Source: a virus. Taken from it: a stretch of DNA of 64,000 nucleotides. The number at the start of each line of letters is the position of its first letter. Position 1 is the first letter of the stretch. Shown here piece after piece: positions 13,227 to 44,301 of the stretch. The stretch lies in IMG/VR virus record IMGVR_UViG_3300045988_050969; one strand, 5' to 3'. Position numbers and translations under genes: made by a program. The notes under the pieces are model-generated. The model did not search any database, was not told the origin of the DNA, and saw only the letters and a program-made list of their open reading frames with translations.

Positions 13227-13255
13227 ACTCACGACTGCAACCTTTTATTGGTTAA

Positions 13256-17630: not shown

Positions 17631-17635
17631 AACTA

Positions 17636-18541: not shown

Positions 18542-18544
18542 ATA

Positions 18545-18988: not shown

Positions 18989-19157
18989 CATTGTTATTTG
19001 CAATTAGAGCCTCACCAACTAGATTGGCTGCTACGTTCATACCAAATTGTTTAGTATCGTTATCTATCTCACTTACCTTCACGTTGATTTGAAGGAGCAG
19101 AAGATATATCTGCTCCAACAATTCTCTATCTGTCATATGTGCTAAGTATGGATTCAT
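18966..19157 (-). CDS. small hypothetical protein (63 aa)
   Basis: Intact ORF. TAATG overlap with the upstream gene's stop. Ends TAA. Confidence 0.4.
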   Translation of the reverse strand: MNPYLAHMTDRELLEQIYLLLLQINVKVSEIDNDTKQFGMNVAANLVGEALIANNNDAERRNN

Positions 19158-25374: not shown

Positions 25375-25384
25375 AGTAGTTTAA

Positions 25385-28300: not shown

Positions 28301-28669
28301 ATATGCTATTACTACTCTAGTAGTATCCCCATCTATACCTGGTACACCGTCAATACCGTCCTTGCCATCTTTACCATCTTTACCATCTTTACCGTCCTTA
28401 CCTGCATCTCCTGTTCTACCTGCTGGTATGCCAAATGAGAATAAGAACTTATCTTTATCTAAAGATACAGATGCTGTAGGAGTACTTGATTCGTATACAT
28501 CCTTAATTGCAGCCTTAAACTTAGAATTACCTATAACTATATCAGCTACTGATTCAAGTGGTAATTTATAGTTATTGTCTTTTTCTGCAGTAACAATGTA
28601 TTCACTACCTGTAGCTTCAAGCTTCTCTTCTAAGTCCAATATCTTTACACCATCACATTTTTGTATCAT
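25385..28669 (-). CDS. collagen-repeat tail fibre / receptor-binding protein (1094 aa), TAG-recoded
   Basis: ATG 28669, TAA 25385..25387, 3285 nt = 1095 codons. Fragments 26477.., 26021.. and 25562.. are in phase. G-X-Y run GDAGKDGKDGKDGKDGKDGIDGVPGIDGD and repeated W-rich roughly 80-aa modules. Confidence 0.8.
28325..28412 (-). repeat. collagen-like G-X-Y coding repeat (9-bp tandem units)
   Basis: Plus strand ...ccatctttaccatctttaccatctttaccgtccttacc... encodes (GKD)n. Confidence 0.8.
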
Positions 28670-28680
28670 ATCTATTTATT

Positions 28681-29379
28681 TTATAATTTACAATAACCAT
28701 TACTGCAATTTCCTGTACTGCAAGTATTATTAGAACAAGAGTAACAAATACCACTAAATAAAGTAGCAGAGTTACGCTCTTTCTCTAAGTGAAGACATTT
28801 ATCGTTTTCTGTATTGAAACAATCACCTTTCTGAGTAAGAATAGCATTGTTACAGCAAGTACTAGCTGCACATTTTGGTTTAATAGATATCTCAAGTAAT
28901 CTACAGATATCTACATATAATTGTAAAGCATCGCGATAGTAATCGGATGCTAAAGCATACTCAAGCAGCTATCTCTTAAAGACTACTAACATTATGTTCT
29001 GCATAGTCTGATCATCTAAACAAGTTGAGCAGTGAGTATGTAATTTCCTAATCTCTGCCATATATACAATTGAAGGATTGTAGTATATGCCATGAAAATG
29101 TATTTCTTCCTATTCCGTAAAACATCTCAAAGTAACATACTTCATATTCCAATCTAATTCTAGAATGTCGTCATTAGTTACAGTTACATTATTATCGGAA
29201 TCTACTGTAATATTCTCAGAAAAGCTAATGTTATGTATAGGACTGTCTTCAAGTATGTTCTTTAAATTCCATACTTCATCTATATAAACCTCCTTACTGT
29301 AGCTACTAAGATCTACTTCAGTCTCTATCTTAAAGGTCAGTTTATCACCATCTATTTGTATATTTGTTAATTTGTCCAT
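28681..29379 (-). CDS. hypothetical protein with a Cys-rich C-terminal half (232 aa), TAG-recoded
   Basis: ATG 29379, TAA 28681..28683, 699 nt. Fragment 29110..29379 reads through its TAG into a Cys-rich tail (CSTC...CAASTCCNN...CYSCSNNTCSTGNCSNGYC). Confidence 0.5.
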
Positions 29380-29389
29380 ATATCAACAA

Positions 29390-29425
29390 TAAAAAAAGTG
29401 GAGAGTGGAATATTCCACAACTCCA
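29390..29425 (-). terminator. strong rho-independent terminator after 29481..30455
   Basis: Minus strand GTGGAGTTGTGGAATATTCCACTCTCCAC followed by TTTTTTT. Confidence 0.75.
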
Positions 29426-29480
29426 CTTCTGTAGTTTGTAAAAGGAATGTTTATCCCAAATTCAATCTCTCTAACGTGGA

Positions 29481-30455
29481 TTAGGCAATTGTCTTACCAG
29501 CAATAAATGACTGAATACCTTTATCTACGATAGAATCAACTAAACTAGGACAATAAACTTCCGTAGTCAACGGAGTAGTCTTGATATACTGATTATCATT
29601 GCTCAAGTACAGGTTATCATTTTCAATAATAGCGTAGTCATATTCTGTACCTTCAACAGTCTTACGAATCTGTTCTACTTCAGGATATGCGCCAGTAAAT
29701 ACATGACCTTTATAACCCATGTTACGTACTTCTGCGTCACGTACCTGTTTCCAATAACCCTTACCAGGATTACCTGCAGTCTTTTCAATCTTAGCACCAA
29801 CAACGGCTTTAGGCTGATTAGCGAGTAATGCACCAGGAATAGTTTCGTACAGAGAAGCTTCCATAGATACAACGCTGTATTCATTTAAAGAATAAACGCC
29901 TTCATTATCATCCTTCGGCATAGCAGTCAAAGTCAGAACTGCAGCAGAAGCAGAAGCCTGTACTCTACGGTTCTTGTGTGCGTTAATCTTCTTCAAGAAA
30001 GCGTCTACTAAGTCTTTAGCAGTAGTAGTTTCAGCATATACTTCATAAGTATGAGTAAACTGGAAGTTGTTTACTTCAAAATCCTTATAAACAATACGCA
30101 AAACGTAACGATTACCAGCAATGATAGTAGCGTTAGTTAAAGTGATTACAATCTTTTCTTCAACAGGAGCTACATATTCGCCAATTACTGCAGACGGTTT
30201 AGAAGCTTTCTGAATTTCAGTAGAGAAATCAATATTAGCTTTCTGTGCTACTGTACCATCAGGCATAGTAACATTCATCTTTTCACCTGCTACACCTACA
30301 TACAGAGAGTTAGCATTTACTGCATCAGCAGCAGTCTTAATAAGAGCCTTATTCTCATCGAACAAAGCAACATCACCAACAGCCAAAGCATCTACTGTAG
30401 TGTAAGAAGCCGGAGCTTGTTTTCCGATTAATACGGAGTGTACTGATTGTAACAT
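29481..30455 (-). CDS. abundant-looking structural protein (324 aa), TAG-free
   Basis: Intact ORF with no TAG, higher GC, followed by a strong terminator. Function not recognised. Confidence 0.75.
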   Translation of the reverse strand: MLQSVHSVLIGKQAPASYTTVDALAVGDVALFDENKALIKTAADAVNANSLYVGVAGEKMNVTMPDGTVAQKANIDFSTEIQKASKPSAVIGEYVAPVEEKIVITLTNATIIAGNRYVLRIVYKDFEVNNFQFTHTYEVYAETTTAKDLVDAFLKKINAHKNRRVQASASAAVLTLTAMPKDDNEGVYSLNEYSVVSMEASLYETIPGALLANQPKAVVGAKIEKTAGNPGKGYWKQVRDAEVRNMGYKGHVFTGAYPEVEQIRKTVEGTEYDYAIIENDNLYLSNDNQYIKTTPLTTEVYCPSLVDSIVDKGIQSFIAGKTIA

Positions 30456-30552
30456 ATTAAAATATTAAAATTAAATTAGACATTAGCGCTTAGTCTATTC
30501 GCTTACTTTCTACTTTCATTATTTCAGATTTCCACGGCCGTAAGCGCCTTAA

Positions 30553-31221
30553 TTATTCGTCCTAAGATTTCTTAGAACTAGTATTAGGTATAGTTTGCAC
30601 TATCATTTGAACTGCTAGATCAACTATATCCTAATGTGTATTTTCTGGAAGATCTGTATATTCTTTAGTAAGATCACTTACATTACCCAGATCTTTTGCT
30701 TTTCTTAAATAGGTAAGCTAATATGAACTTATATCATAATTACCATCAGTATATAATACAATTTTATTGTCAGTATATACTCTAATAGGTTTTGCTTGAT
30801 TATAACGCAATTTATGATCTGATAGACTATTACTTAGTCTAGAGCTTACTGTCTCTATTGTAGCCTCTATTACATCAGATTCACGAGTAATTAAGTTATT
30901 GCATTTATTATCCTTTATACTTATGTATACATTTTCACCAAGTGCAAACATATAATCTTCAGGATAATCAGTTTCCCATTTATTACCTAATTTACTAAAG
31001 CTATAAGTAGTATAGCTCTTAGTATTTACTAAAGTACGTATGTTATCAGTAATCTCTTGATTTCTCTAGAATACTCTAAAGTTCTGTTTAACATATTCGT
31101 CTTTAGCTTTGTTTATGAAATGAAACAAAGTATCTGAAGGAAACTTAATAGTATCATTATAGTTTGTTATAATGTTATTCAGTTGCCTTTCTACATTTAT
31201 TTGAAAATCTCTTTCGCGCAT
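30553..31221 (-). CDS. hypothetical structural protein (222 aa), TAG-recoded
   Basis: ATG 31221, TAA 30553..30555, 669 nt. Fragment 30718..30951 is in phase. Confidence 0.55.
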
Positions 31222-31223
31222 AA

Positions 31224-31934
31224 TTATTCAGATACTTGGTTTAACTAAAATTTAGAAGATTGTCTTTGAGATTCTATATTCTCTAAAGCAATTACTACAG
31301 CTCTATTAATAATCTCATACATGACATCTTCAGGAAAATCTAATTCTTGTTCAGGTTTAGTATAATCAAACTTAGTTGGTTTCTTAACATAAGTGAGATC
31401 TACTCTATAGAACTCTGTATTATCTTCTACTCTTGGAGCATACATAGGATCCTGCATTAAAACAGGATCTACATATACTAAGAGTTTATCATTTTCTAAA
31501 GTAGCTACTGGATTCTCTACCCAAGGTATATTATTATAAGTCTGCTTAAAAGGCTTTACTAACTCATGGCTAGTAAGTACACAGTTAGTCTAGAATTGTC
31601 CATACTTAAGTAATACACTAAGTATAGTCATTCTATTATCTTCATCATGAACATCTTCTAATGCATACTCATTGTAGTCTGTATGTACAGCATGAAGGTT
31701 AACATCTGTAGCTATTAACTTCTCTATTTCAGATAAGTTAGATACAGAACCTTCTAAACCTACTCTTAAAGCATTGTTACCAGTAATCTTATTACTTAAG
31801 ATTTCCAACTATGCTTGATTAAGAAATAAGTCTACTTCTTCATCTAAGAATGCTGGGCATCCACCATAAGCAATACCTTCTGCATTCTTATCCAGAACTA
31901 CCTTGAAAATTATATGAGAATCTTTATTAGTCAT
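31224..31934 (-). CDS. hypothetical structural protein (236 aa), TAG-recoded
   Basis: ATG 31934 (TAATG overlap). TAA 31224..31226, 711 nt. The TAG at 31245 is 7 codons before the TAA. Confidence 0.55.
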
Positions 31935-32686
31935 TACTTAGATTTAATTTCATTGAGTATCGCTAATTTAATATCTTGATTCTTTTTATCTTGTAAATAA
32001 GCAATAACATCATCGATACCATTACCAATCAAATCTGTACCAAAGAAATATTGAGTACGATTCTTTCTAATAATGTTTTTAGCAATAGCTTCTTCAATAA
32101 CAAAGTTAATTTCTTTATTTGGGTTTTCTACCCATTTCAGCATAAACTTTTCAGGAGAAGTCTCAACTTGTTCTGTAAGTTTAGCTTCAACTAATTCATT
32201 TGACATTGTATCTGATTTCATACCATACAGACGTAAGCACTTACGCATATCTTCAATGGACATTTTATCGAGCTCACGATAAGCTTCACGTTTAACTTTA
32301 TTAACACGATTAGCTTGTTCAGCTTCTGCATCTTTATTAATCAGTACATAATCTTTAGAAGGATTCATATTACTTAACCCATCTGCTACTCTTTTATGAC
32401 CTTTAAGGAATAAGTATTGCAATTCATCTAAAGGTTTCTCAGTATCAAGAATCAAATCTCTCTTACCGATTTTAACTGCAAAGGTAGTCCAAAAATCACT
32501 ATTAGGAGCTAATTCACCTTCTTCTTTATTTAAGGCTTTTTCTAATCTACGAGCATCTTCTGAGCTCAAGCCAGTGTAGATATTACCAGATCTAGTCCAG
32601 TACGGGCCTACATAATCAAAAGTAGTAGGCCATTTAGTAAGTCCTGTCCAAGGATTTACTTTCATTATTCTAACGATTACTTCCAT
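31934..32686 (-). CDS. hypothetical protein (250 aa), TAG-free
   Basis: Intact ORF ending in TAA. Confidence 0.7.
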   Translation of the reverse strand: MEVIVRIMKVNPWTGLTKWPTTFDYVGPYWTRSGNIYTGLSSEDARRLEKALNKEEGELAPNSDFWTTFAVKIGKRDLILDTEKPLDELQYLFLKGHKRVADGLSNMNPSKDYVLINKDAEAEQANRVNKVKREAYRELDKMSIEDMRKCLRLYGMKSDTMSNELVEAKLTEQVETSPEKFMLKWVENPNKEINFVIEEAIAKNIIRKNRTQYFFGTDLIGNGIDDVIAYLQDKKNQDIKLAILNEIKSK

Positions 32687-32714
32687 AATACTTTGTATTA
32701 GATTTATCCTGTTA

Positions 32715-33386
32715 TTAAGCGGCGAAATTCAAAGAATGATTGTTATACTCTTCTAATGTTATCTTTCTTATATAAACATTTTGTTTCTTCCATAATTTCG
32801 GAATATCTGGTTCACTGTATGTCCTAACTAAAGTTATAGTAGTATTATAAAACCTAGCACAATCTGCTTTAGATCTAAACACATTGATAACGTTGTTATC
32901 TACATCTAGTATGGCTACAGGTTGTTGACATTTTTCAACTAAATTCATTATATGATTATGCAACTTATCTGTAGTCTTACCTTTTCGTGTTTCCGACATC
33001 TTCTTTTTAGTTTCTTCAGATGCTTTTCTTCCAATAGCTTTTTGACGAATTTTATCTTTAGTTTCTTCAGAGTGCATTCTACCAAATGTTCTGTCTCCGC
33101 CTTCTGTTAAGTTATAACCTTTTTCTCTATTCATAGAGTCGTATTGCTTAATCCAATACTTTTCTTTTTCTTTTAACTCTTCATACGTATCAGCAAAATC
33201 AATTATTTCTAATGTAAAATTTTCTTCTCCGTATTTAGCCATTGAACGATGAATAGGAGCAGGTTCGCCAATGCGAGCTTCATACCAATGATGGCGATAC
33301 CTCGCACCAGCGCCCTGATTAGTTATTCCTATATAAACTTTTCCAGTAATCTTGTTAGTAATTTTATATACGTCGTTGCTTTTCAT
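32715..33386 (-). CDS. GIY-YIG homing endonuclease with NUMOD3 repeats (free-standing)
   Basis: VYKITNKITGKVYIGIT...R..HH...KYWIKQY...GYNLTEGG, then HSEETKDKIRQK and ASEETKKKMSETRKGK. Intact in the standard code. Confidence 0.85.
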   Translation of the reverse strand: MKSNDVYKITNKITGKVYIGITNQGAGARYRHHWYEARIGEPAPIHRSMAKYGEENFTLEIIDFADTYEELKEKEKYWIKQYDSMNREKGYNLTEGGDRTFGRMHSEETKDKIRQKAIGRKASEETKKKMSETRKGKTTDKLHNHIMNLVEKCQQPVAILDVDNNVINVFRSKADCARFYNTTITLVRTYSEPDIPKLWKKQNVYIRKITLEEYNNHSLNFAA

Positions 33387-33480
33387 ACAATATATCTTTG
33401 TTTGGTATATTATATATAACGTACAAAATACAAAAAAGTTACTCGAAAATTAGTTAAATTTTATTTAATTGATGCTCGAC

Positions 33481-34944
33481 TTACTCTAAAATGAGCTCTC
33501 CGCAAGCTCTAGGATCTCGTAACATTATACCCATTTCACCAAGGAAGAATACGGTGTAGCCGTCCTTACCATTAGATCTCAAGGTATCCTTAGACTTAGC
33601 ATAACCAGACGGAGCAACAGCACCACCAGTGTACCAAGTTACGAATTCACGATCCTTACGAACTACTTTAACGATATTAGCTTCACCATCACGACGACCA
33701 AGATCCAAGAAAGTCATACGATATGATTCCTTCGGCTTCAAGGTTACAGGATGCAACTCACGATTATAAGTAGGATCGTCATACAACGGGAAATATTTCA
33801 AAGTCAACTCGATGCCATTAGTCATCTTGTAAGTCTTGAACTAACCGCCAAAAGTCAAGTTATCACCAGAACCAGTTACAAATACTGTATCCATTAAGTT
33901 CATAGTAGCTACTTTTTCTTTCAAGATACGGTCAAATTCACGCATACCCATTTCACCAGTCAAGGCAACAAACTTACGTTCATTAGTACCCAGGCAGTTA
34001 TAAGACAGGTCAAACAAGAAGTCTTCCAACATCTCACCAGTCAAGTGAGTGTAGTAACGTCTATTAGACGGAGCAATCTGTTCCAACAGACCAGCACCGA
34101 TAAATACCGGACGACCGTTAGTACCCTTCAGATTACAAGAACCATCTTTGTTAACATTAGTCTTCATATAAACGAGCATACGTTCACATCTCTTGTACCA
34201 TTCACGTAAAGCTTTCCATTCCTGATAATCAGCCCACAGATAAGAAGTCTTGCCAGTAGCAGGATCTTTCAAAGCTATTGCCATTACTGTAGAATAAGCT
34301 GAACCAGTAATATCATAGTTAACACGAATAGTAGTAAGATAGTTACGCATCTTGAAGTGAGTGTTGTAGTTCAAGATATCACCCTCTTCACTGTATTCTT
34401 CATATGCAGAAGCAAGACGAGATACCTGTTTTCCAGCTTCAAGATATTCAGAAGGAATATAGGAAGTAGGCTGACCATCTGCTACAAAGCAGGTATATAC
34501 CCACAGATTACCATCTTGATAGGGAGCACCTGATACACGTACTTGGAACTCTCTGTTATCAAATTCGAGAATAGCACCAGGACCAAACCAATTATCTTCT
34601 AACCATAACATGATAGGAGTGTTACCCAAACCTGCAGTAGAAGTAGCAGTAATAGCTGCGCCATTCCATTTAGCGTCTCTAATTGTTACGGCTCTGTCAT
34701 TATCAACCATTACAGACCATTCAAAAGAAGGCTGATCAATTGTCATTACATTGCCAAGACCACCTGTCAACATATCCAAAGAAGTGCTATAACCACTATC
34801 TTTTGTACCAAATACGTAAGACAAGATAGTAGACACCTGATACGGATTCTGCTGAGAAGCTACTGAAATCTTAGCAGTATCAATCAAGTCGGAAAACCAC
34901 TTACCTTTGTAGAGTTGAAGGTTATTAAGAATATTGTTATCCAT
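33481..34944 (-). CDS. major capsid protein (487 aa) with a single in-frame TAG
   Basis: ATG 34944, TAA 33481..33483, 1464 nt = 488 codons. Fragments 33841..34944 and 33481..33825 join across the TAG at 33841..33843. Called from its size, its position after the scaffold-like gene and the TerL-portal-...-MCP order. Identity was not checked by search. Confidence 0.7.
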
Positions 34945-34984
34945 AAAAATACTAGTAATTTAATTTTTTAATTATTTAATTTTA

Positions 34985-36208
34985 TTATGCGACACGTAGT
35001 TGTCGTGCGAAAGCATCCCAGATAGATGAGTTGCTATCGTTATTTATCACTTGCCTTTTAGATTTCTTAGATACTCCACTATTTCTAGATAGTGTATTCT
35101 TGAAATTATCAATAGCATCTTTTTTACCTTTCTTCTTAGCTATATCAATTAAGGCATCACCTTTCATTGTAAAGTAAGCAGAAGTGATTAAATTCTTAAG
35201 GCTTTTAGCATAATCTTTCTAGTATCTAGTAATGCCATCTGCATCCGGTTTGAATATGTATTCCAACAGGGCTTTCTTATCCTTTTCAGGAATATCAATT
35301 CCATAGATACTATCCATGCCTTTTATTTCTGTGACAACGTTATTAAAGAAGTCACGTTGTTGCTTTTCAGCCTCTCTAGCCTATTTTTCCTGGTTGGCTA
35401 ATAGCTCTTCTTTACGTGCAACTTTGATGTCTCTAAGAGCCTCTAAAGCGTCTGTAGCCTCGTCCTCTAATAGGCCTGCTTCTTCATATTTGTTAAGTTT
35501 CTTTTCAATTTGTTTTGAAGTAAAGCCTTTTTCTTTTAAAAATTCTTTAATGACCAGTTTTTGATTTACTTCATCATCTTCTATCTCGATATTATCAATA
35601 TCAAGATCAGCATCGATACTAAAATAATCTTTAAGCTTACCTCCATTATGAACAAATTTATCAAGCTTTTCTACTTCCTCGCTAGCATACTGAGGAGTAG
35701 AATTTTCTTCTATTACCTCTTTAAAGTAATCAATTAGATCTTCAGCAGTTCTAGGCTTTTCGTCATCTTCTACGTCATCCCATCCTAATTGTGTTGCTAA
35801 CGAATCGAAGAATCCTACAATTATTTCTTCATCACTTGTATCATTTCCACCATCGGTATTATCACTATTAGATTCTTGTTCCCTATCCTCATCCTCATCT
35901 TCATTAGTTTCTGTATTTTCAGATTTGGATTTCTTTTGAGTTTTAGTAGTTTTTTTAGGTTTAGATGTAACATCTTCATCTTCATCTTCCTCTTCAGGAT
36001 CTTCGTCTTCAAGCTCATCGTCTTCTACTTTAGTTGTTTTCTTAGGTTTAGGATTACGTAACGCCTCTAACTCTTCATCAGTTAGTTCTTCTGCTGCTGC
36101 ATCAATTACGTCAGTATCGTTGTCTTCTGTTTTAGTCTTAGTACCTACATGAGGGTTTAAGGTATCTAATATAGCCTCAAAACCATTCAATGTGTTCTTT
36201 GCTTCCAT
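34985..36208 (-). CDS. acidic scaffold-like protein (407 aa), TAG-recoded
   Basis: ATG 36208, TAA 34985..34987, 1224 nt. TAGs at 35381 and near 35220. Long D/E-rich low-complexity region. Lies immediately upstream of the MCP. Confidence 0.55.
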
Positions 36209-36226
36209 AATTATATATAATTAGAT

Positions 36227-36436
36227 TTATTTTTTTCTTCCTTTATGTTTCCATTTTTTCGCATTCTAAGCGAAGATAGCTCGCTTACGAGTCAATGGAT
36301 TCTTACTATGAGTAAGTTCTTCTGTACTTTTACCTGTTCTCTTCTTCAAAGCATTAAACTTACCTCTATTCTTCTTCTTTATATGTATCCCTCCATCTTT
36401 ATAACTTGGTATTGGATACTGCGGTATTATTGTCAT
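36227..36436 (-). CDS. small basic protein (69 aa), one in-frame TAG
   Basis: ATG 36436, TAA 36227..36229, 210 nt. Sequence ...GGIHIKKKNRGKF...RKRAIFA[TAG]NAKKWKHKGRKK. Confidence 0.45.
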
Positions 36437-36523
36437 AACTGTTAAACAATCTCTTGATTCTTGTTTTTATTTACCTTATTTACTAAAGGTCTAGTTAGAA
36501 AATCTTTATATAATACACTTGGT

Positions 36524-37537
36524 TTAGGGAGCTGATTCTATAACCTATCTAAACTATTTAGTATTAGTAGGATAAGTACTAGGAGTTAATGTATTCATCA
36601 AGTACTCATCAAACTAATTCATAATACTTTTCTTTTCTGTAGGCTTACGCAAATATTCATATACACTTTTAGCTCTGTCTTTATCTGGAAACATATGCTC
36701 CACTTCAGAGAATGGTCTGTACTTACTTGGTTTACCTAACTATCTTAAGTATGCATTATTTGGTACTCCTCCGGGATAAGCTTTCTCATCTACATAATGA
36801 CCTATTTCATGTCTTATTAATCCTTTAGGATAGTCTTCTGCAGTTCTAATATTATCTGTAGACAGATTTATAGTTTTACCTTCAGATGGATTAATGTTAG
36901 CATAATCTTTTTTATTTGATACAAAATTAGGTTCAGGCAAGTTAACATAACTATTTATATCTTCATATTCTTTAGTTAAGTCATCGTATACTTTATTATA
37001 TTCAGTACCGTACTTTCTATCAATAGTCTATGCCCTTCTTCTAGCTTCTGGAGTATTTAATAATTCATATGCTCTATTACGCTGATCAGAATATTCTTCT
37101 AATACTCGTCTTCTATTGTTGTTTTCTAAATCTCTTCTAAGATCATTAGCATCAACCTATCTTTGAAAACTTCTAGTAACAGTAGGAATCTCCCTTGAAA
37201 TTTTGCTTTTAAGAGATTTATATATATTAGGTATAAAAGGAATCATAGCTGAAGCAGCCAAACCAGCACCTAACCAATCTCTATTCTTTACTGCATTATA
37301 AGTATCTCTAGCTGATATAGCATCACCAATAGGAGTCATATTAGCAGCATCTTCAAGACTAAATACAGGCTTTAAACCTTCTTCTAAAGGTCTACCACTA
37401 CTACTTCTACCTGTAGCTTGATAAAATCTCTCCTTCTCAGGATCACCTGTCTGACCACCATCTGCAAATGCTTCTACCTTCCAATCCCAATAGCCTTTAC
37501 CGGGATTATTCTCCCGGTAAGACTTTAGGTTCTGCAT
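36524..37537 (-). CDS. HExxH-motif protein (337 aa), TAG-recoded
   Basis: ATG 37537, TAA 36524..36526, 1014 nt. Fragments 37157.. and 36740.. are in phase. Contains the motif GLIRHEIGHYVD. Confidence 0.55.
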
Positions 37538-37556
37538 TCTCTATTTAAATGCTTGT

Positions 37557-37814
37557 TTATCCATATATAAAATCTGTAAAATTTCTTTTACCTAAGAATT
37601 GTTGTCCATTCATGTAAATCTCAGCTTCTTGAGAAGATTCAGATATGCAAATAGTAATTATATCTTTTTTAAATATTCTAGTATCCAAAGGAGTACCTAT
37701 AAAGAACATTATATACTATTGTACTTCATCTTCATCCTACTCTACGAATCCGTTATCTAATAGTCTCTATATAAACAATTCAATTCTTTCTTTAACAGTA
37801 GGTTCTCGTTCCAT
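37557..37814 (-). CDS. small hypothetical protein (85 aa), three in-frame TAGs
   Basis: ATG 37814, TAA 37557..37559, 258 nt. Confidence 0.4.
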
Positions 37815-37894
37815 AACTATTATTTCTTTCCGCCTTTACCCTTCTTAGAGCTACCGGATTTCTTACCTCCACATGCCATAATTAATTCCTCCTA

Positions 37895-38359
37895 TTATTT
37901 AATTGTTTTAAGATATTGTCTCCAATTTTTCTTATTAGCCTTATAAGTCTTCTTTCTATCCTTAATCTTATATTTATCAAGATCTTCAGGCTTACGTGTT
38001 TTCAGATAATCAAAGTTATCATCATTAGCATAAGCTTCCATTTCATAAGGAATAGTATAGTAAGCACTAGATGCAGGATAGATAATCGGATTACCTTTAA
38101 TCCATTCCCATGCATAAGACCAATAATAACTTATCCATCTCTTTTTATCTTTAGCTTCATAGAGATGAATATTTTCATGATTCCAAGTAGTAGGCTTAAT
38201 CTGAGATTCAGGTTTTCTACTTAACAAGTAACCACACCAGCTCATTGCAGAATAACCACTAAATGGATAATGGTCCATATGCTTATACTCTACTTTGTCT
38301 GCTTCTACTTTAGTGAATAACTATTTGATTATCCACCACGTTTCTTTAAACCAATTCAT
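37895..38359 (-). CDS. HExxH-motif protein (154 aa), one in-frame TAG
   Basis: ATG 38359, 465 nt, ends TAA. Contains the motif WNHENIHLYE. Confidence 0.55.
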
Positions 38360-38361
38360 AA

Positions 38362-40872
38362 TTATTTCTCTCCTGTTACTTTATTCTTAATCGCAGTTTT
38401 GGCTTTTAATCTTTCTCTTTCCATTGCTGCCTTGTCTTTAGCTGCTTGCAACTTCATTTCATGATCCATTCTTTCTCTTTCAAGCTAATTCTTCTTATCT
38501 TCTATCTCTTTTTTCATTTTCTGCTCTCTAATCTTAGCATTGAATTCAAATTGTTTAGAAGCTTCATCAGATGCTTGCTTACGTTCAGCTAAAGCTTGCT
38601 GGGCTATTTCCATGACATCAGGTACACCATTCTCATTCTAATCCATATTTTCAGCACCTCTATAAGCATTAAGTTGAGCTACAGTAATCTTAGTAGCATT
38701 ATCTTGGTCTATTTTATATTTCTCAAGATCCATCTCTGCCTCTTTAATCATAAGCTCTTCTTCCTTAACCTCATTTTGCATTTGAATAGCTTGCTGTTCA
38801 CGTTCTGCTTGAGCTTGCTCCATAGCTTGTTGTTGCTCCATACGTTTCTACTCAATCTCCTCTAATCTAGACTTAATCATACTAATATTATCCATAGTAA
38901 TGATTTCGGCTATATCGAGTAAGCTAGCTCCATTCTGCATAGCAGGTTGCATAAGTTGTTTAAGAGCTTCTACTTGTTGTTGATTCTTAGTAGTATCATC
39001 AATGAATATATCCATGTCTTCATAGAAGAACTCATCAGAAAGAGTTATAAATGCTCTAGTAGCATCATCAAGGATATAATGTAAGCATCTTTTATTATCT
39101 TTCCATGCTACTTTAGAAGTATCTAATAACATAGTAAGAGCTTCTTTCTTTACTTGATTATGAACCCAGAACCAAGGTTCAGTAATATGAGCTGACTATA
39201 CTATAGATCTCTCTACATTACCTACTAATTCATTAGATGCAACAGAACCTTCACGCTATTTACTTACTCCTGATATTTCTGATACCATAGCTTCAATCTT
39301 ATCCATAAGATTAATATACTAATCAATAGTATTAGCCATAGTAAGATCCAATGAAGTAAATTGATTGAACTGAGATGGCTTACCACCTTCTCTACCGGGT
39401 ATATCCCATCCTTCTTCGTATGGATTAATAAATACTACACCAAGAGCACCTAAGTAATGCATCCATTTATTCACATCTATGCCCATAGATTTAGGTATCT
39501 AAGTAACGTCAATAACAGGTACTTTACCTTTATCTCTAGCCATAGCGAGTTCTAGTCTGTACCATAGTACAATATACATATACTGCAATGGTTTCATCAT
39601 ACTTACCAAAGATCTAGGAGCACTATTAGTATTATTGTATACAACTCCTGTATAAGGTAATTTTTGAGAATTAAGATTATCAGCAGATATGTGTTGGTAT
39701 TCTAGTGGTTGTATACCTATATATAAGTCTTCTCCAACTCTATAACCTTCCCATACCTCTATAATCCAAGTCCATTCAACGTTCAACTCCATACCAGTAA
39801 CCTTGTAGGACTCGTCTACTTGTAACTCATCAATTTCTCCAGTATTAGGATCTTGATAAGTAACGAAACCTATTTTCTTAAATGACTTCCAACAGCAATG
39901 CCAAACATTAATGTTATCAGACCCTTCAAACGGATTTGAAGTTAACCCATTAATAGTTCTTGTTTTTAAGTGAGGATAATCCATAGATGTCTTACGTACT
40001 TCAGGATTAATGCCTCCCCTGCTTACATCATCTACCATTTCAAGCAATTCATTTAATTGCTTTTCTGTCATTTTATCATAGAATCTATCATAAATTTCTG
40101 TAGCTGACATAATCATCTTACGGCAACACCAATCAGAGTCATGAATGAATTCTAAGTCTGCGCTCTAGTCATAACTAAAGTAAAGAGGATTAACTCGTTC
40201 TAAATAAGGATTACCATTTATAATACCAATATAGTATATTTCTTCTCCAGCTATCAACGCGTCCTTCCAACCTTTATAAAACTCATGAACTACATTAAGT
40301 TTATTCTTAAGATAATTAAGGCTATGATATGCTGTTACTTCTGCTATATCCTTATAATCCTTACTTAGATATTTCTATATCTTTTCTGGAGGTAATATTT
40401 CACCATTCTGTAATGCTTGTTGATATCTCTAAGCCTCTTCAGGGCCTAACTGACTCATAATAGTAGCCATTACATAATCTTCAAGCATTTGTTTAGCAGT
40501 ATCCTGTACTTCACTAGTAGCTATATCACTAGTACGTACTACTCTAAAATTAAATGGTCTTTTTGTTTCTTCACCTAATAATAAGTCTATTTTAGGCTTA
40601 ATTATATTATAATCCTATGCTGTGGCAGGGAATCCATCTTTCTATTTAAAAGGATTTGTAACATACAAAAGATCTTTCTCATTATAGATACTATTGTATA
40701 AATCATAGTAAGTCTACATCTCCTCATATCTAGTACGCCCATTTCTACCGCCTCCACTATTAAAGCCTGACTTACCTATTATATAGTCAACACAGGCTTC
40801 TTTCCAATCTTTAGTCTTTTTAGACATAGGAAGTTTTTGCACAGGAAATGAACCAATATTTCTACTTATCAT
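38362..40872 (-). CDS. portal protein (836 aa) with a C-terminal coiled-coil extension, TAG-recoded
   Basis: ATG 40872, TAA 38362..38364, 2511 nt = 837 codons. Fragments 39499.., 38848.. and 38638.. are all in phase. Lies directly after TerL. More than 10 in-frame TAGs. Confidence 0.75.
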
Positions 40873-40878
40873 ATTCTG

Positions 40879-42924
40879 TTAATTAAATGTATATACATCG
40901 TCATCGACTTGACTGAAGCTATCGTCATAACTCCAGTTACCATAAGTAAAGAGAGGACCGTCGAATAATAATCTCTCTCTGTTAGTTTTTTTCTTCTCTT
41001 TTACAACTACATTATATAGCTGTTCACGATAAATCATTACCTGCATCAACGCCATCACACGGTCAAAGTTACCTATATCATTATAACCTATAAGCTCTTC
41101 TAATAGCGGTTCTGATAATATATCGTGTAGGTTTTTATGCCCTGGAGATTTCTCATCATTTAACCAATCTTTGATGAGTCCTTCACCCCATTGTTTAATC
41201 TGTTTATTCATGTGACAACCTTTCTTTCGTTGCACCTTAGAATTGCTGATGATATCAGATATAATATCTGGCTAATCAGCCAAAAGATAGTCACAATGCT
41301 TAGCAGTAAAGTATGGAAACAAACCTTTACGCTCATTTTCATACATAATTCTGCCATTATAATAAACTGCGAGTTTACGTAAGTTTTCATAATATTCCTC
41401 TGCTGTAGCAGGCCTTCCTGTATACTCAGCTACTATTATATCATAGTAGTTTTCAAAGTTCTAAAATCTCTTATATACAAAAGTAGATCCTAATGAGTTA
41501 GTACCCGATTGATCATGATCATAAGGGTCTACTCCAAGTATATATAAACCGATAGGAGCATCCTTTACAGGGTGTTCCCATATAACTATAGAACCAGTAG
41601 GATCATCCTCTTTAGATAAAGGATAATGAGTAATATCACCTTGTTTTTTTATTACCCATTTAAGACTACCATCTGATTCCCATACTAAATCACCTATCTA
41701 TTTGTGATTTGATAATTTCTTATTCGTACGTATTTTAGCTAGTTGTTCTTGTAATTCTTTTTTAGGGAATATATTACCATTAAATTCTAGACATGCTTCA
41801 GCTGGAGTAATACAACGTTCCGCTACATAACGGTCTACTGCTACAGAACTAGTAGCATTCTCTATTACGTCTTTACGCTGTTGTAATACGTATTCTAAAG
41901 CTTTATGTCTTATAGTATTACCGTCATTATCCATATACATACGATTTCCCTACTCATCTCGTATGTCCATGTTTGTATACTAAGGTATGAAGAATCCACA
42001 TTTAGTATCTCCTACATTCTCATCCCATATGTTATCAAGCTCTAAACAATTATAACCTTTAGGCTTATAAAACATATCTTTAAGAGTAAAGAAGTTAGAA
42101 TCTTCATCACCACCAGTACCAAATGCAATCATAGTAGCAAATGCTCTACCATCATTCTCTACAGAAGGTCTAGCGATTTGCCATGCTGCGCCTAATTCTT
42201 TAAATGAACCAGCTTCTTCAAATAGAATAAGGTTAGCTTTCTTACCACGTACTACATCAGGATTGTCTTTCAAAGTAACCCCAATAATTTCAGATTTATA
42301 ACCTACTTCTATTTGATTACCATACTCATCCTTCATACTTACTGCAGCGCGTTTACGTAATTGAGTATTTACAGCTCTTTTCTTACCCCACGCAGTATGT
42401 TCATCTATAAAGTCTAAGTAGTCCCAAGCTTTAGTAAGAATACCATCATCTGTTAAATATTGCTTATTTGAAGCATATACATATGATTTAGAGTTAGGTA
42501 TAAGATAGTAATTACGACATAACATAGCAGCTCCTTTATAGGAGTAACCTTTACGTCTAGACTTAAGTACACATAAATGTTTACCCTATTTATGAGCTTC
42601 ATTTACTGCATTAAAATAGTAATAATCATAGTCCCAAAAATCAGGAAATGTAACCAACTACTCTGATACTACTTCCCCATTTACTATACTATTGACAGTA
42701 CGGTTAATAGGACAATAATTTAAATAAAAATAGTTATACCCACTAATGAAATCACCATCATCAGCTGTATAACCATTAATACAACGTTCCTTTTCCTCTG
42801 TCCAGAAACGCATATATTCTGCCGTACCTTTGGGGTGTGGACAGTATTGACCTGTTCTAATATATGTAAGAGCAGGCTATCTAAACTTATTACTATTTAC
42901 TATCTTCTTATTAAAGTCGACCAT
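40879..42924 (-). CDS. terL: terminase large subunit (681 aa), TAG-recoded
   Basis: ATG 42924, TAA 40879..40881, 2046 nt = 682 codons. Fragments 41980.., 41698.. and 40879.. are in phase. ATPase Walker-B-like LILFEEAGSF, followed by a nuclease-like C-terminal half. About 8 in-frame TAGs. Confidence 0.85.
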
Positions 42925-43129
42925 TTCTCTTCTTTGTTCTAGTGAGACTGATTAAAGCTTCTTTTATAGTCTTTTCTGTAATCTTACTGTACACAGTACT
43001 GTTGGCGATATCGAATTGACAAATAATACCATTACCGGCAGCCTTCCATATCTCCGGAGTAATTTGGTATCCATCAAGCTCATCCTGCATAGCAAGGAAA
43101 GTTACATTCTTACCTCTAAGTTTATCCAT
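42911..43129 (-). CDS. small protein upstream of TerL (72 aa)
   Basis: Intact ORF. Overlaps the TerL start by 14 nt. First gene of the late block. Confidence 0.5.
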   Translation of the reverse strand: MDKLRGKNVTFLAMQDELDGYQITPEIWKAAGNGIICQFDIANSTVYSKITEKTIKEALISLTRTKKRNGRL

Positions 43130-43150: not shown

Positions 43151-43178
43151 AAGGGGCGCGTTTCACAACGAACCCCTT
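43151..43178 (-). terminator. terminator-like or attenuator-like hairpin just upstream of the late block
   Basis: AAGGGG-N16-CCCCTT. On the minus strand it is followed by TTTCAATTATAAAA and ends about 20 nt before the ATG at 43129. Confidence 0.4.
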
Positions 43179-43407
43179 CTATTGAGATAATAATTTATAA
43201 CTTAAAATTCTTTAATTATGAAAAATATATGTTGGGGAGATTTCCAGTGACTGCAACCTAGTTTCTTAAGCTAGGGATTTATACGCCTTATGTTTAGTAC
43301 TCCCCACCTGGGCTAACGTTTACCCCAGACTACCTGTTCGTGATAACTACCTATCCAACAAGTTTCCTTCTGCTATTGTAATTTCAAAGGACTAGTGTTT
43401 TAATTTG

Positions 43408-43479
43408 TCCTCCTACCATAGAATCGAACTCGGACTTACGGGGCTAGAATCCGTCGTGCTGCCACTACACCATAGGAGA
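43408..43479 (-). tRNA. suppressor tRNA, anticodon CUA (decodes UAG)
   Basis: Minus strand: TCTCCTA-TG-GTGT-AGTGGCA-GCAC-G-ACGGA-[TT CTA GC]-CCCGT-AAGT(C)-..G-TTCGATT-C..-TAGGAGG-A. Anticodon loop is U33-CUA-G37, and the D-loop GG and T-loop TTCGA are present. The T-stem is weak and the acceptor/T register is ambiguous. Confidence 0.75.
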
Positions 43480-43547
43480 GGGTTGCGTGGATATTCTTAC
43501 CCTCCACGTAAGGGTCCCTTCAGGGTTAAATTAATGATATCTTAAAA

Positions 43548-43700
43548 TTAAAACCAGCTCTTGATACGCTTAGCTATTCTTTTATACCAAGGTTTTACTT
43601 GCAATCTAGCTGCTTCACATTCAGCAATTGCTTCCTCAACAGTCTTGGTATCATCAGTCAAATCTACGATAATTGTAGGCATTTTTGTATTTTTATCCAT
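43548..43700 (-). CDS. small hypothetical protein (50 aa)
   Basis: ATG 43700, TAA 43548..43550, 153 nt. Below the ORF-track size cutoff. Confidence 0.3.
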   Translation of the reverse strand: MDKNTKMPTIIVDLTDDTKTVEEAIAECEAARLQVKPWYKRIAKRIKSWF

Positions 43701-43755
43701 AATCTCAATTTTGTATTATTAAACGTTGTTGTTATTTTTTAGTGTTTATCAAATG

Positions 43756-44301
43756 TTATACTCTAACATTTTGATTAGGAAGTTCAAATAAATTAATCTT
43801 AGCGTCACCTTTTACTTTGCTAGTTTCAAGCTCACCAGATTTAACAGCTTTCTCTAAGTAATCTAGAGTAACAAATGTATCTTTTACTTTAGCAAACCCT
43901 GCATAATACTTCTCTATTTTTTTTTCATCAAGTTCTTCCAATAAAGAATCTTTATAGTATTTATTGAAAGTATCCAGCTTTAATCTGATGCTATCTAGCA
44001 TATCTAAAGTACGAGTATGTTGTAATCTAATAAAGCTATCTTCTGCTTTCTGCTCATCCTCAGAAAGCTCATAATCTGTGCTTCCTAAGAATTCTTCTTT
44101 TAGTTTACTTTCTATTTGATCGTATGGAATACTCAGTACATAAGGACTATCCCATTTATTCTTAAATACTATATAACTAAGTATTGCAGTAGCATGTTGT
44201 TTATCAGCTTTATCTGATTCCCATATTTTCTTAAAAGCAGGTATAGCTAAAGCATTTTCATGTATTACTACTTTTCCTCCTATTATATCAAATAGTTTCA
44301 T
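43756..44301 (-). CDS. hypothetical protein (181 aa)
   Basis: Intact ORF ending in TAA. Confidence 0.65.
   Translation of the reverse strand: MKLFDIIGGKVVIHENALAIPAFKKIWESDKADKQHATAILSYIVFKNKWDSPYVLSIPYDQIESKLKEEFLGSTDYELSEDEQKAEDSFIRLQHTRTLDMLDSIRLKLDTFNKYYKDSLLEELDEKKIEKYYAGFAKVKDTFVTLDYLEKAVKSGELETSKVKGDAKINLFELPNQNVRV

What the first reader, a model, noticed from the sequence alone, without database searches (positions are those of the whole stretch)
43408..43479. Suppressor tRNA(CUA) sits at the head of the recoded late block and has a non-canonical body
The minus strand encodes a tRNA whose anticodon loop reads UU-CUA-GC, so it decodes UAG. It lies between the last middle gene (ending 43548/43756) and the first late gene (43129). 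It would therefore be transcribed just before the genes that need it.

Its structure is odd:
- There is an A31-C39 mismatch closing the anticodon stem.
- The T-stem has only 3 of 5 Watson-Crick pairs in the register that keeps the TTCGA loop (CCGAG/CTATG).
- The acceptor can be drawn as 7 bp with a U1-G72 pair. It can also be drawn as an 8-bp helix with only one nucleotide before the D-stem.

A weak first base pair is a known GlnRS identity feature, which would fit Gln charging.
Basis: partly seen in the sequence, partly recalled or inferred. Interest (0 to 1): 0.7.

Follow-up and report, generated by a model that had tools for sequence, protein, structure and literature searches.

The report
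Phage amber suppressor tRNA-Gln, slightly odd
A gut crAss-like phage carries a glutamine tRNA altered to read the UAG stop codon, placed just before the late genes that are full of in-frame UAG; this is an expected part of such phages, though two of its structural quirks look conserved rather than defective.

Summary
ARAGORN and Rfam both call a 72-nt tRNA with anticodon CUA at 43408-43479 (-).

The window is a crAss-like phage of the family Suoliviridae, 94% identical to cr115_1. Its minus-strand late block (1718-42924) holds 150 in-frame TAG codons. The 4,324 early and middle codons hold none.

The tRNA is a Bacteroidales-type tRNA-Gln(CUG) with G36 changed to A. It shares the host D-arm, the UU-CUN-GC loop and A73, and like host genes it does not encode CCA. 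In standard-code relatives, glutamine sits opposite 32 of 71 window TAGs. This matches the published TAG-to-Gln recoding in crAss-like phages, so the kind is already known.

- The T-stem is CCGAG/CU[A]UGG, five pairs with one bulged A, not 3 of 5.
- The 8-bp acceptor is not needed.
- The first recoded gene (TerL) starts at 42924, not 43129.

The A31·C39 mismatch is not a defect. All five U32-type Gln-like tRNA(CUA) lineages recovered from other crAss-like phages also have an open 31-39 pair with C39. The same mismatch makes yeast tRNA-Gln(CUG) a UAG suppressor.

In near-identical phages the same ~90-nt slot holds eight different tRNA(CUA) alleles. Some are split by introns, and some sit beside homing endonuclease genes.

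The parts
43408..43479 (-). Suppressor tRNA(CUA), tRNA-Gln type, 72 nt. Acceptor is 7 bp with U1·G72. D arm is GUGU/AGUGGCA/GCAC. The anticodon stem has 4 pairs plus A31·C39. The anticodon CUA is at 43447-43445. The variable loop is AAGU. The T arm has one bulged A. A73 is at 43408, and CCA is not encoded.
   Evidence: ARAGORN. Rfam RF00005 at 37.7 bits. Stem-by-stem comparison with relatives and host tRNA-Gln.
43442..43450 (-). Anticodon loop UU-CUA-GC, closed by the non-Watson-Crick A31 (43450)·C39 (43442). In effect this is a 4-bp anticodon stem.
   Evidence: Sequence and Infernal's non-canonical marks. The same A·C occurs in L001, L196, L197/198, L199 and the cr114 type; L206/209 has C·C. 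In host tRNA-Gln, A·C occurs in 2 of 95.
43419..43419 (-). Single bulged A between U62 and U63 in the 3' strand of the T stem.
   Evidence: Infernal insert state. The host L108 T arm CCGAG-UUCGAGU-CUUGG lacks it. It costs about 3.8 kcal/mol. L001 shares it, and L058/L068 have an extra A at the same place.
43396..43485 (-). Replaceable 'suppressor cassette' slot. It lies between the conserved upstream ...TATCCACG and the conserved downstream ACTAGTCCTTTGAAA.
   Evidence: Phages whose flanking 181-aa protein is 98-99% identical carry eight different inserts here, from 90 nt to 1.27 kb.
43487..43512 (-). Conserved H-type pseudoknot. It ends 7 nt upstream of the tRNA 5' end. Helix A is CTTAC/GTAAG and helix B is GTGGA/TCCAC.
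   Evidence: The same architecture, fully paired, occurs in 9 sequence-distinct lineages. Helix A has 7 different sequences and helix B has 7. Loop 3 is A-rich.
43233..43391 (-). Conserved structured non-coding RNA between the tRNA and TerL, of unknown function.
   Evidence: About 89-90% identical in Birpovirus-like loci and in cr53_1, although TerL of cr53_1 is only 72% identical. RNAalifold predicts 47 pairs, 4 of them with compensatory changes. No Rfam hit.
43153..43176 (-). G+C-rich hairpin GGGGUUCG...CGCGCCCC followed by UUU. It may end the middle transcription unit.
   Evidence: It is conserved in most syntenic loci. It resembles the terminator hairpin of BTnc060. The simple terminator scan does not call it because the T run is short.
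42911..43129 (-). 72-aa TAG-free ORF that overlaps the TerL start. It is absent from cr115_1.
   Evidence: It has a weak sub-threshold Pfam match to a piece of the crAss capsid protein.
40879..42924 (-). Terminase large subunit, the first TAG-recoded late gene (8 in-frame TAG).
   Evidence: It is 98% identical to cr115_1 TerL.
1718..42924 (-). TAG-recoded late block: 32 ORFs and 150 in-frame TAG (11.4 per 1000 codons). All stops are TAA or TGA.
43548..44301 (-). The last two standard-code genes upstream of the tRNA, of 181 aa and 50 aa. Neither contains TAG. They are conserved markers of the locus.

Best explanation
This is a working phage-encoded amber suppressor. It is a Bacteroidales-type tRNA-Gln(CUG) whose anticodon became CUA through G36 to A.

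**Proposed mechanism**
- It is made from the standard-code part of the genome.
- Host enzymes process it, and the host CCA-adding enzyme supplies the CCA end.
- The host glutaminyl-tRNA synthetase charges it with glutamine.
- It then inserts Gln at the 150 in-frame UAG codons of the late block. This allows terminase, portal, capsid and tail proteins to be completed.

**Shown here**
- The tRNA, its anticodon and its homology to tRNA-Gln.
- The sharp boundary between the two codes at this locus.
- Glutamine at UAG-aligned positions in standard-code relatives.
- Conservation of the tRNA and its quirks in a diverged phage.

**Inferred**
- Charging by GlnRS.
- The timing of expression.
- The open A31·C39 pair improves UAG decoding or charging specificity.
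- The bulged A in the T stem is tolerated or mildly useful.
For: **It is a tRNA.** Two independent detectors call it.

**The genome needs it**
- Reading TAG as sense raises total ORF length from 12,148 to 21,526 aa and joins the minus-strand late genes.
- The late block has 150 TAG, 119 CAG and 251 CAA codons. The 4,324 middle and early codons have no in-frame TAG.

**TAG means Gln**
- Opposite window TAGs, Q accounts for 19/30 in cr10_1, 7/23 in ProJPt-Bp1 and 6/18 in crAss001 (gaps set aside).
- The next most common residue accounts for about 8%, and the Q background is 2.8%.
- Metaproteomics has shown TAG=Q in two crAss-like phages (PMC9523058).

**The body is tRNA-Gln**
- The D-arm motif was searched across bacterial genomes, and 120 matching loci were sampled. 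110 of the 120 tRNAs carrying it are tRNA-Gln.
- Bacteroidales tRNA-Gln(CUG) shows UU-CUG-GC, U1-A72 and A73, and does not encode CCA.
- The window T stem equals a host T stem plus one A.

**It is under selection**
- L001 sits in a phage whose flanking genes are only 68-80% identical. Its tRNA matches at 68 of 72 positions. Two of the four differences form a compensatory pair at 4-69. It keeps both the A·C mismatch and the bulge.

**No alternative suppressor was found**
- None appears in the window.
- The complete genome of the closest relative, cr115_1, has its only candidate at this same locus.

**A31·C39 is retained**
- Four different covarying anticodon stems all keep A31·C39: ACGGA/CCCGT, AGAAA/CTTCT, AGGGA/CCCCT and GAGGA/CCCTC. 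The cr114 type keeps it too. A single C39-to-U change would restore the host A-U pair.
- The same A31·C39 mismatch in yeast tRNA-Gln(CUG), allele sup70-65, creates an efficient UAG suppressor (PMC3664417).
Against: - Nothing here shows expression, processing or charging.
- Its tRNA score (37.7 bits) is the lowest among the related suppressors, which score 40-55 bits.
- The bulge costs about 3.8 kcal/mol.
- Pair 2-71 is C-G, whereas host tRNA-Gln has G2-C71, an E. coli GlnRS identity element (identity set as listed in PMC1483225).
- G37 follows A36, so the usual G36-G37 context of host tRNA-Gln(CUG) is lost.
- The allele is rare. Only one other copy was found in IMG/VR, and none in the metagenome set.
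- About 36 kb of the phage genome lies outside the window.
Confidence: 0.8

Rival explanations
1. This is a decaying or poorly working allele. The bulge, the open 31-39 pair, C2-G71 and the lost CCA are damage. Suppression comes mainly from another tRNA, either host-encoded or in the unseen 36 kb.
For: - It has the lowest Rfam score among the relatives.
- The bulge costs about 3.8 kcal/mol.
- The allele is rare.
- L058/L068 carry the same extra A plus a G·G mismatch in the T stem.
Against: - Both quirks are kept in L001 even though the flanking genes have diverged 20-32%, and the acceptor shows a compensatory change.
- The open 31-39 pair recurs in five further U32-type lineages.
- Host tRNA genes also lack an encoded CCA.
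- No other suppressor was found in the window or anywhere in cr115_1.
- The 150 late-gene TAG codons need an efficient suppressor.
Confidence: 0.1
2. It decodes UAG but is charged wholly or partly with another amino acid. Lysine is the most plausible, because the anticodon keeps U35 and the discriminator is A73.
For: - U35 and A73 are E. coli LysRS identity elements, and amber suppressors are typically mischarged with Lys or Gln (PMC1483225).
- C2-G71 departs from the host tRNA-Gln acceptor.
Against: - Opposite window TAGs, Q appears 32 times and K 4 times out of 71.
- The body is tRNA-Gln.
- In E. coli, every tested change away from A31-U39 lowered Lys acceptance.
- Proteomics in other crAss-like phages found Q.
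Confidence: 0.05
3. Its main role is not decoding. It could be a recombination or homing target, a decoy for a host anticodon nuclease, or a processing signal.
For: - The slot is hypervariable.
- In relatives it is flanked or invaded by HNH and GIY-YIG endonuclease genes and by introns.
Against: The CUA anticodon is kept across about two dozen very different tRNA sequences at this locus. That includes the two exons of the split genes, which rejoin to give CUA. This constraint points to decoding.
Confidence: 0.03

Closest known systems
Suppressor tRNAs annotated as 'tRNA-Gln' in crAss-like phages cr125_1, cr114_1 and cr53_1 (Suoliviridae; Yutin et al. 2021, PMC7886860)
   Same: - The locus is the same: after the conserved 181-aa and roughly 50-aa ORFs and before TerL.
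- The anticodon is CUA.
- Most have the Gln-type D arm, a weak 1-72 pair and A73.
- The late genes are TAG-recoded.
   Different: - The body sequence differs.
- Those tRNAs have regular 5-bp T stems and an encoded CCA.
- Most have a C32 loop (CU-CUA-AC) with a paired 31-39.
- The window has a U32 loop, an open A31·C39 and a bulged A, and does not encode CCA.
E. coli supE (glnV44): tRNA-Gln(CUG) mutated to CUA. This comparison rests on my own knowledge.
   Same: It is a tRNA-Gln(CUG) turned into an amber suppressor by the single change G36 to A, and it is still charged by GlnRS.
   Different: - supE is a cellular mutant allele with A37, G73, G2-C71 and a paired 31-39.
- The window tRNA is phage-encoded, with G37, A73, C2-G71, an open 31-39 pair and a T-stem bulge.
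Yeast sup70-65, a tRNA-Gln(CUG) allele with an A31·C39 mismatch (Kemp et al. 2013, PMC3664417)
   Same: [quoted passage not shown]
   Different: - The yeast tRNA keeps the CUG anticodon and reads UAG by first-position wobble. It is also unstable and poorly charged.
- The window tRNA has the cognate CUA anticodon.
tRNAs with 4-bp anticodon stems that read stop codons (Fakih et al. 2026, PMC13092985)
   Same: One terminal pair of the anticodon stem is open in a tRNA that decodes a stop codon. Such stems are over-represented among bacterial Sup(UUA) tRNAs, at 20.5% against 5.6% overall.
   Different: The documented cases are near-cognate tRNA-Trp(CCA) reading UGA. Here the anticodon is cognate, and the open pair is specifically 31-39.

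Membership tests
tRNA (Rfam RF00005) | A cloverleaf that scores above the family's gathering threshold | tested here: met
   37.7 bits against a gathering score of 29, covering model positions 1-71. ARAGORN agrees.
tRNA (Rfam RF00005) | Conserved tertiary-interaction nucleotides: U8, A14, G18, G19, A21, U33, G53-C61, U54, U55, C56 and A58 | tested here: met
   All are present in the sequence.
Bacteroidales-type tRNA-Gln | D arm with the motif AUGGUGUARUGGYAGCAC, including G10 | tested here: met
   The motif is present. Among 120 sampled bacterial genome loci carrying it, 110 tRNAs are tRNA-Gln, 8 His and 2 Gly.
Bacteroidales-type tRNA-Gln | Anticodon loop UU-YUG-GY with U35 | tested here: met
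   UU-CUA-GC. It is identical to host tRNA-Gln(CUG) loops except G36 to A.
Bacteroidales-type tRNA-Gln | Weak 1-72 pair that starts with U1, and discriminator A73 | tested here: met
   U1·G72 and A73. The five representative hosts have U1-A72 and A73.
Bacteroidales-type tRNA-Gln | G2-C71 | tested here: not met
   The window and L001 have C2-G71. Host tRNA-Gln and most related phage suppressors have G2-C71.
Bacteroidales-type tRNA-Gln | Aminoacylation with glutamine by GlnRS | not testable with these tools
   Only indirect evidence: Q predominates opposite window TAGs.
Phage amber suppressor of a TAG-to-Gln recoded genome (genetic code 15) | Anticodon CUA in a genome whose genes carry many in-frame TAG | tested here: met
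   150 in-frame TAG in 32 late ORFs. Every late ORF ends in TAA or TGA.
Phage amber suppressor of a TAG-to-Gln recoded genome (genetic code 15) | TAG positions correspond to Gln in homologues that use the standard code | tested here: met
   Q at 32 of 71 aligned positions, against a 2.8% background.
Phage amber suppressor of a TAG-to-Gln recoded genome (genetic code 15) | The suppressor is encoded in the standard-code part of the genome and expressed before the recoded genes | tested here: inconclusive
   Its position fits: it is the last element before the recoded block and follows TAG-free genes. Expression was not tested.
tRNA-Pyl (ARAGORN's label) | Compact body with a 3-nt variable loop, a 6-bp anticodon stem, a short D loop without GG and no TΨC sequence. 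These defining features are from my own knowledge. | tested here: not met
   The D loop has GG, the T loop is UUCGA, the variable loop is 4 nt, and the anticodon stem is 4-5 bp. The label only reflects the CUA anticodon.
tRNA-Sec-like or 'allo-tRNA' bodies with 8/5, 8/4 or 9/3 acceptor/T-stem geometry (geometry from my own knowledge) | An acceptor helix of 8 or more bp with a single nucleotide before the D stem | tested here: not met
   The eighth pair, U8·G65, is equally available in ordinary host tRNA-Gln. The 7-bp cloverleaf with the bulge is 1.5 kcal/mol more stable and matches the host T stem.

The most novel reading that the evidence does not exclude
The 'defects' are adaptations, and the locus is a battleground.
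- The open 31-39 pair (A·C, in effect a 4-bp anticodon stem) may be a decoding or charging enhancer. It would have been selected repeatedly in U32-type phage amber suppressors, and it is the same mismatch as in yeast sup70-65.
- The suppressor may sit in a roughly 90-nt replaceable cassette, bounded by a conserved pseudoknot and a conserved 160-nt RNA. Intron and homing-endonuclease traffic would keep overwriting that cassette.
- If so, many TAG-recoded phages that seem to lack a suppressor actually carry one that is split by an intron or has a non-canonical T loop.
Probability: 0.4. Interest if true: 0.65.

Novelty: new member of a known kind. Interest (0 to 1): 0.4.

Why it matters
The tRNA itself is the expected switch that lets a TAG-recoded crAss-like phage make its late proteins. 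It confirms published models and does not change them.

Three comparative points could be useful:
- **A testable rule.** Phage suppressors with a UU-CUA loop keep an open 31-39 pair with C39. This links to a known yeast suppressor mutation and to the recent work on 4-bp anticodon stems. It could guide the design of efficient amber suppressors.
- **Missing suppressors.** Published surveys found a suppressor in only about 40% of TAG-recoded phages. At this locus the 'missing' ones are present but split by introns or carry odd T loops. Annotation pipelines could recover them.
- **Cassette turnover.** The eight alleles among near-identical phages, often beside homing endonuclease genes, suggest that selfish elements drive turnover of a gene the phage cannot live without.

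Tried and rejected
- **Free-energy folding.** Neither the window tRNA nor a genuine host tRNA-Gln control folds into a cloverleaf, and z-scores are only -0.7 to -1.7. This is uninformative. I scored the specified structures instead.
- **ARAGORN's 'tRNA-Pyl' label.** Rejected. It only names the CUA anticodon.
- **8-bp acceptor and the '3 of 5' T stem.** Rejected in favour of the 7-bp acceptor with a bulged T stem.
- **Exact-pattern scans for more copies of this allele.** Three scans of IMG/VR found only L001. The T-stem bulge therefore cannot be tested by covariation.
- **Search for a stepwise intermediate.** I looked for a phage tRNA-Gln(CUG) that already has A31 and C39. None was found in IMG/VR with that D-arm pattern.
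- **UU-CUA-AN pattern scan.** Six of the eight hits were coding-sequence chance matches. Only L206/L209 were tRNAs.
- **Rfam on the flanks.** It gave nothing for the upstream pseudoknot or the downstream 160-nt RNA. A broad Rfam search missed the cr115_1 intron. Only a narrow search gave a sub-threshold group I hit.
- **MAFFT alignments.** MAFFT could not align the pseudoknot's 3' half or place the tRNA bulge. Pairs were therefore counted with my own scripts rather than with the count of structure pairs.
- **TerL homologues from the protein database.** All were at least 77% identical, and their TAG positions may already have been translated by an alternative-code gene call. That would be circular. 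I used tblastn against standard-code genomes instead.

Full report
**1. Is it there?**

Yes. ARAGORN reports a tRNA with anticodon CTA at 43407-43479 on the minus strand. Rfam's tRNA model matches 43408-43479 at 37.7 bits, against a gathering score of 29, with E = 2.4e-4 for the whole window.

Read 5' to 3' the gene is:

UCUCCUA UG GUGU AGUGGCA GCAC G ACGGA UUCUAGC CCCGU AAGU CCGAG UUCGAUU CU[A]UGG UAGGAGG A

The anticodon CUA is at 43447-43445. A31 (43450) faces C39 (43442). U1 (43479) faces G72 (43409). A73 (43408) is followed by CAA, not CCA. A permissive Rfam scan of all 64 kb finds no other suppressor-like tRNA.

**2. What genome is this, and is it recoded?**

- The region is 94% identical to crAss-like phage cr115_1 (Crassvirales, Suoliviridae, Birpovirus).
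- Reading TAG as sense raises total ORF length from 12,148 to 21,526 aa. It also fuses the minus-strand genes from 42924 down to 1718 into long ORFs of up to 1,390 aa.
- Those 32 late ORFs hold 150 in-frame TAG codons, 11.4 per 1000. That is more than CAG at 9.1 per 1000. All of them end in TAA or TGA.
- The 30 middle and early ORFs (4,324 codons) have no in-frame TAG, and two of them use TAG as their stop.
- The tRNA sits exactly at this boundary. Upstream lie the TAG-free 181-aa and 50-aa ORFs (ends at 43756 and 43548).
- Downstream lie a TAG-free 72-aa ORF (43129-42911, absent from cr115_1) and TerL, which starts at 42924 rather than 43129.

**3. Which amino acid?**

*Protein evidence.* I ran tblastn with the late proteins (X at each TAG) against relatives that use the standard code in these genes.
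- Opposite window TAGs, glutamine accounts for 19 of 30 in cr10_1, 7 of 23 in Azobacteroides phage ProJPt-Bp1 and 6 of 18 in crAss001.
- That is 32 of 71 overall. The next residue (E) reaches 6 and K reaches 4. The Gln background is 2.8%.

*tRNA evidence.*
- The D-arm motif AUGGUGUARUGGY(N)AGCAC was searched in GTDB genomes, and the scan stopped at 120 matching loci. 110 of the 120 tRNAs carrying it are tRNA-Gln (76 UUG, 34 CUG), 8 are His and 2 are Gly.
- Bacteroidales tRNA-Gln(CUG) genes read UU-CUG-GC in the loop, start with U1-A72, have A73 and do not encode CCA.
- The window tRNA is therefore such a tRNA with G36 changed to A. The missing CCA is normal for the likely host group.

*Published evidence.* Metaproteomics showed TAG=Gln in two crAss-like phages (PMC9523058). 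Suppressor tRNAs in crAss-like phages are described in PMC7886860.

**4. The 'non-canonical body', feature by feature** (comparison table)

*T stem*
- Infernal treats one A (43419) as an insertion. This gives C49-G65, C50-G64, G51·U63, A52-U62 and G53-C61.
- Those five pairs are identical to the T stem of a host tRNA-Gln(CUG) (locus L108: CCGAG-UUCGAGU-CUUGG). The oddity is therefore a single bulged A, not a 3-of-5 stem.
- Energies of the specified structures:

| Structure | kcal/mol |
|---|---|
| Bulge cloverleaf | -14.5 |
| 8-bp acceptor with 3-of-5 T stem | -13.0 |
| Other registers | -11.4 and -12.2 |
| Bulged A deleted | -18.3 |

- The bulge therefore costs about 3.8 kcal/mol.

*Acceptor*
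- The 7-bp helix is supported. L001 changes C4-G69 to U4-A69.
- The eighth pair, U8·G65, is equally drawable in ordinary host tRNA-Gln.
- U1·G72 fits a trend. The related phage suppressors have U·G, U·U, A·C or U-A at 1-72, where the five representative hosts have U-A.
- One departure from host tRNA-Gln stands: pair 2-71 is C-G rather than G-C.

*A31·C39*
- This turned out to be the most interesting feature.
- In other, distantly related TAG-recoded crAss-like phages (TerL about 33% identical), every Gln-like tRNA with a UU-CUA loop that I could find has an open 31-39 pair with C39:

| Lineage | Anticodon stem | 31-39 |
|---|---|---|
| L196 | AGAAA/CTTCT | A·C |
| L197 = L198 | AGGGA/CCCCT | A·C |
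| L199 | GAGGA/CCCTC | A·C |
| cr114 type | GGAGA/CCTCT | A·C |
| L206/L209 | GGAGC/CCTCC | C·C |

- The other four stem pairs covary freely. A single C39-to-U transition would restore the host A-U pair, yet no lineage has it.
- Suppressors at this locus with a C32 loop (CU-CUA-AC or -AA) have a normal 31-39 pair.
- In 95 distinct host tRNA-Gln sequences, the 31-39 pair is A-U in 53, U·U in 13, G·U in 9 and A·C in only 2.
- The literature gives two leads. First, the yeast allele sup70-65 creates exactly an A31·C39 mismatch in tRNA-Gln(CUG) and makes it an efficient UAG suppressor (PMC3664417).
- Second, in E. coli the 31-39 pair shifts amber suppressors between Lys and Gln acceptance, with A31-U39 the best for LysRS (PMC1483225).
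- In addition, tRNAs with 4-bp anticodon stems are now linked to stop-codon reading (PMC13092985).
- I therefore read the mismatch as a retained, probably useful feature. Which of these effects applies here is not shown.

**5. Is this copy under selection?**

L001 is the only other copy of this allele in IMG/VR. It lies in a phage whose neighbouring genes are 68-80% identical in nucleotides to the window. Its tRNA is identical at 68 of 72 positions. Two of the four differences are the compensatory 4-69 pair, and the other two lie in the D loop. Both the A·C mismatch and the bulge are kept. L001 encodes ACCA where the window has ACAA. L058/L068 share the D arm, the T loop UUCGAUU and an extra A at the same place, although their T stem also has a G·G mismatch.

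**6. The locus in relatives**

Using the 181-aa protein as a marker, I fetched 64 syntenic IMG/VR loci. Most have a tRNA(CUA) between the small ORF and TerL.

The window plus 11 loci whose marker protein is 98-99% identical make 12 phages. One of those loci, L009, is cr115_1 itself. Together they carry eight different inserts in the slot between ...TATCCACG and ACTAGTCCTTTGAAA:
- the window allele;
- a canonical Gln-like tRNA (L008, L015);
- the same tRNA with identical exons, split after CU of the anticodon by a 1.0-kb insert that encodes an HNH endonuclease (L012, L017);
- the cr114-type tRNA (L010);
- a different tRNA split at the same point by a 242-nt insert (cr115_1);
- two kinds of CUA tRNA with non-canonical T loops that ARAGORN misses, each followed by an endonuclease-like ORF (L011/L016 and L014/L018; HNH_3 in L014);
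- a 91-nt tRNA(CUA) with a long variable arm (L013).

*The cr115_1 insert*
- A narrow Rfam search gives a sub-threshold group I intron match: 21.3 bits, E = 0.0023, gathering score 50.
- Its P1 helix places the splice-site U at U35, so the spliced anticodon is CUA.
- cr115_1 has no annotated suppressor. ARAGORN finds none in its complete genome unless introns are allowed.

This bears on a published puzzle. Suppressors were detected in only about 40% of TAG-recoded phages, and the authors suspected non-canonical tRNAs (bioRxiv 10.1101/2021.08.26.457843; also PMC7886860).

**7. Flanking RNA elements**

- *Upstream pseudoknot.* It ends seven nucleotides upstream of the tRNA and spans 43512-43487. 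Helix A is CTTAC/GTAAG. Helix B is GTGGA/TCCAC, with its 5' strand inside the loop of helix A.
- The same architecture is fully paired in nine sequence-distinct lineages. Helix A has seven different sequences and so does helix B. Loop 3 is A-rich.
- *Downstream RNA.* About 160 nt (43391-43233) is conserved at roughly 90%, even in cr53_1, whose TerL is only 72% identical. RNAalifold predicts 47 pairs, four of them with compensatory changes.
- *Hairpin.* A widely conserved G+C-rich hairpin (43176-43153) follows.
- None of the three matches an Rfam family. Their roles are unknown. Processing, transcription termination and cassette boundaries are all possible.

**8. Mechanism, rivals and verdict**

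The best explanation, at confidence about 0.8, is a functional Gln-inserting amber suppressor that licenses late-gene translation. Rivals:
- a decaying allele backed up by another suppressor (about 0.1);
- charging with Lys or another residue (about 0.05);
- a role other than decoding (about 0.03).

The kind is already known, and this is a new member with unusual details. Interest is moderate. The tRNA itself is expected. The recurrent open 31-39 pair, the bulged T stem, the cassette turnover with intron-split suppressors, and the conserved flanking RNAs are worth follow-up.

Noticed in passing
window 43487-43512 (-); also L001, L003, L006, L007, L029, L047, L053 and L061, upstream of their tRNA(CUA): A conserved H-type pseudoknot ends a few nucleotides 5' of the suppressor tRNA. 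Both helices covary across nine lineages, and loop 3 is A-rich. In several lineages it starts only 6-12 nt after the stop codon of the small upstream ORF. It has no Rfam match and its function is unknown.
   Followed up: partly
window 43233-43391 (-): A structured non-coding RNA of about 160 nt lies between the tRNA and TerL. It is about 90% conserved even in cr53_1, whose TerL is only 72% identical. It shows a few compensatory pairs and has no Rfam match.
   Followed up: partly
L002/L009 (cr115_1, NC_055898.1 30533-30833); L012 and L017 3324-4400: These are suppressor tRNA(CUA) genes split after C34-U35 by introns. One intron is 242 nt and gives a sub-threshold group I match with a U·G splice site in P1. 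The other is about 1.0 kb and encodes an HNH endonuclease. The exons of L012 and L017 are identical to the unsplit tRNA of L015. cr115_1 has no annotated suppressor.
   Followed up: partly
L011, L016 (about 3320-3400); L014, L018 (about 3320-3400): These CUA tRNAs have non-canonical T loops (GGUUGGCAC or GGCCGAU) and odd D loops, and ARAGORN misses them. Each is followed by a homing-endonuclease-like ORF. L014 and L018 share the window's acceptor sequence UCUCCU.../...GGAGG.
   Followed up: partly
L013 3324-3414; L064 3280-3370; L069 3318-3408: These are 91-nt tRNA(CUA) genes with a long variable arm, a D loop without GG and C1-G72 or U1-A72, at the same locus. The best Rfam match is a sub-threshold tRNA-Sec hit. 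Which amino acid they carry is unclear. It could differ from Gln, even though the phages are otherwise nearly identical.
   Followed up: no
L016 3323-3426; L048 and L058, just upstream of their tRNA(CUA): A second tRNA-like gene of about 104 nt, with a large insert in the anticodon region (Rfam tRNA 35.8 bits), sits in tandem before the suppressor.
   Followed up: no
window 51210-57245 (+): A dense cluster of known structured RNAs sits in the early region. It holds RAGATH-6, a sub-threshold twister-P1, RAGATH-7, three hatchet ribozymes, tRNA-Leu(UAA), RAGATH-9 and a permuted tmRNA with tag peptide GNTSYVMNYSRIAA.
   Followed up: no
window 42911-43129 (-): A 72-aa TAG-free ORF lies between the conserved hairpin and TerL. 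It is absent from cr115_1. It has a weak sub-threshold match to an internal piece of the crAss major capsid protein and may be a relic of endonuclease-driven gene conversion.
   Followed up: partly
window 40879-42924 (-), compared with database relatives P0003-P0007 and others: The window TerL is 681 aa and has no intein. Many relatives that are 80-99% identical are about 1,027-1,060 aa and carry LAGLIDADG or Hint domains, which indicates intein presence/absence polymorphism.
   Followed up: no
window 13002-13084 (-): A sub-threshold Rfam match to RT-17 RNA (33.7 bits, gathering score 40.4, E=0.013) lies inside the late block.
   Followed up: no
L196 93-165: This suppressor tRNA(CUA) has the T loop UCCGAAU, with C in place of the universal U55.
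   Followed up: no
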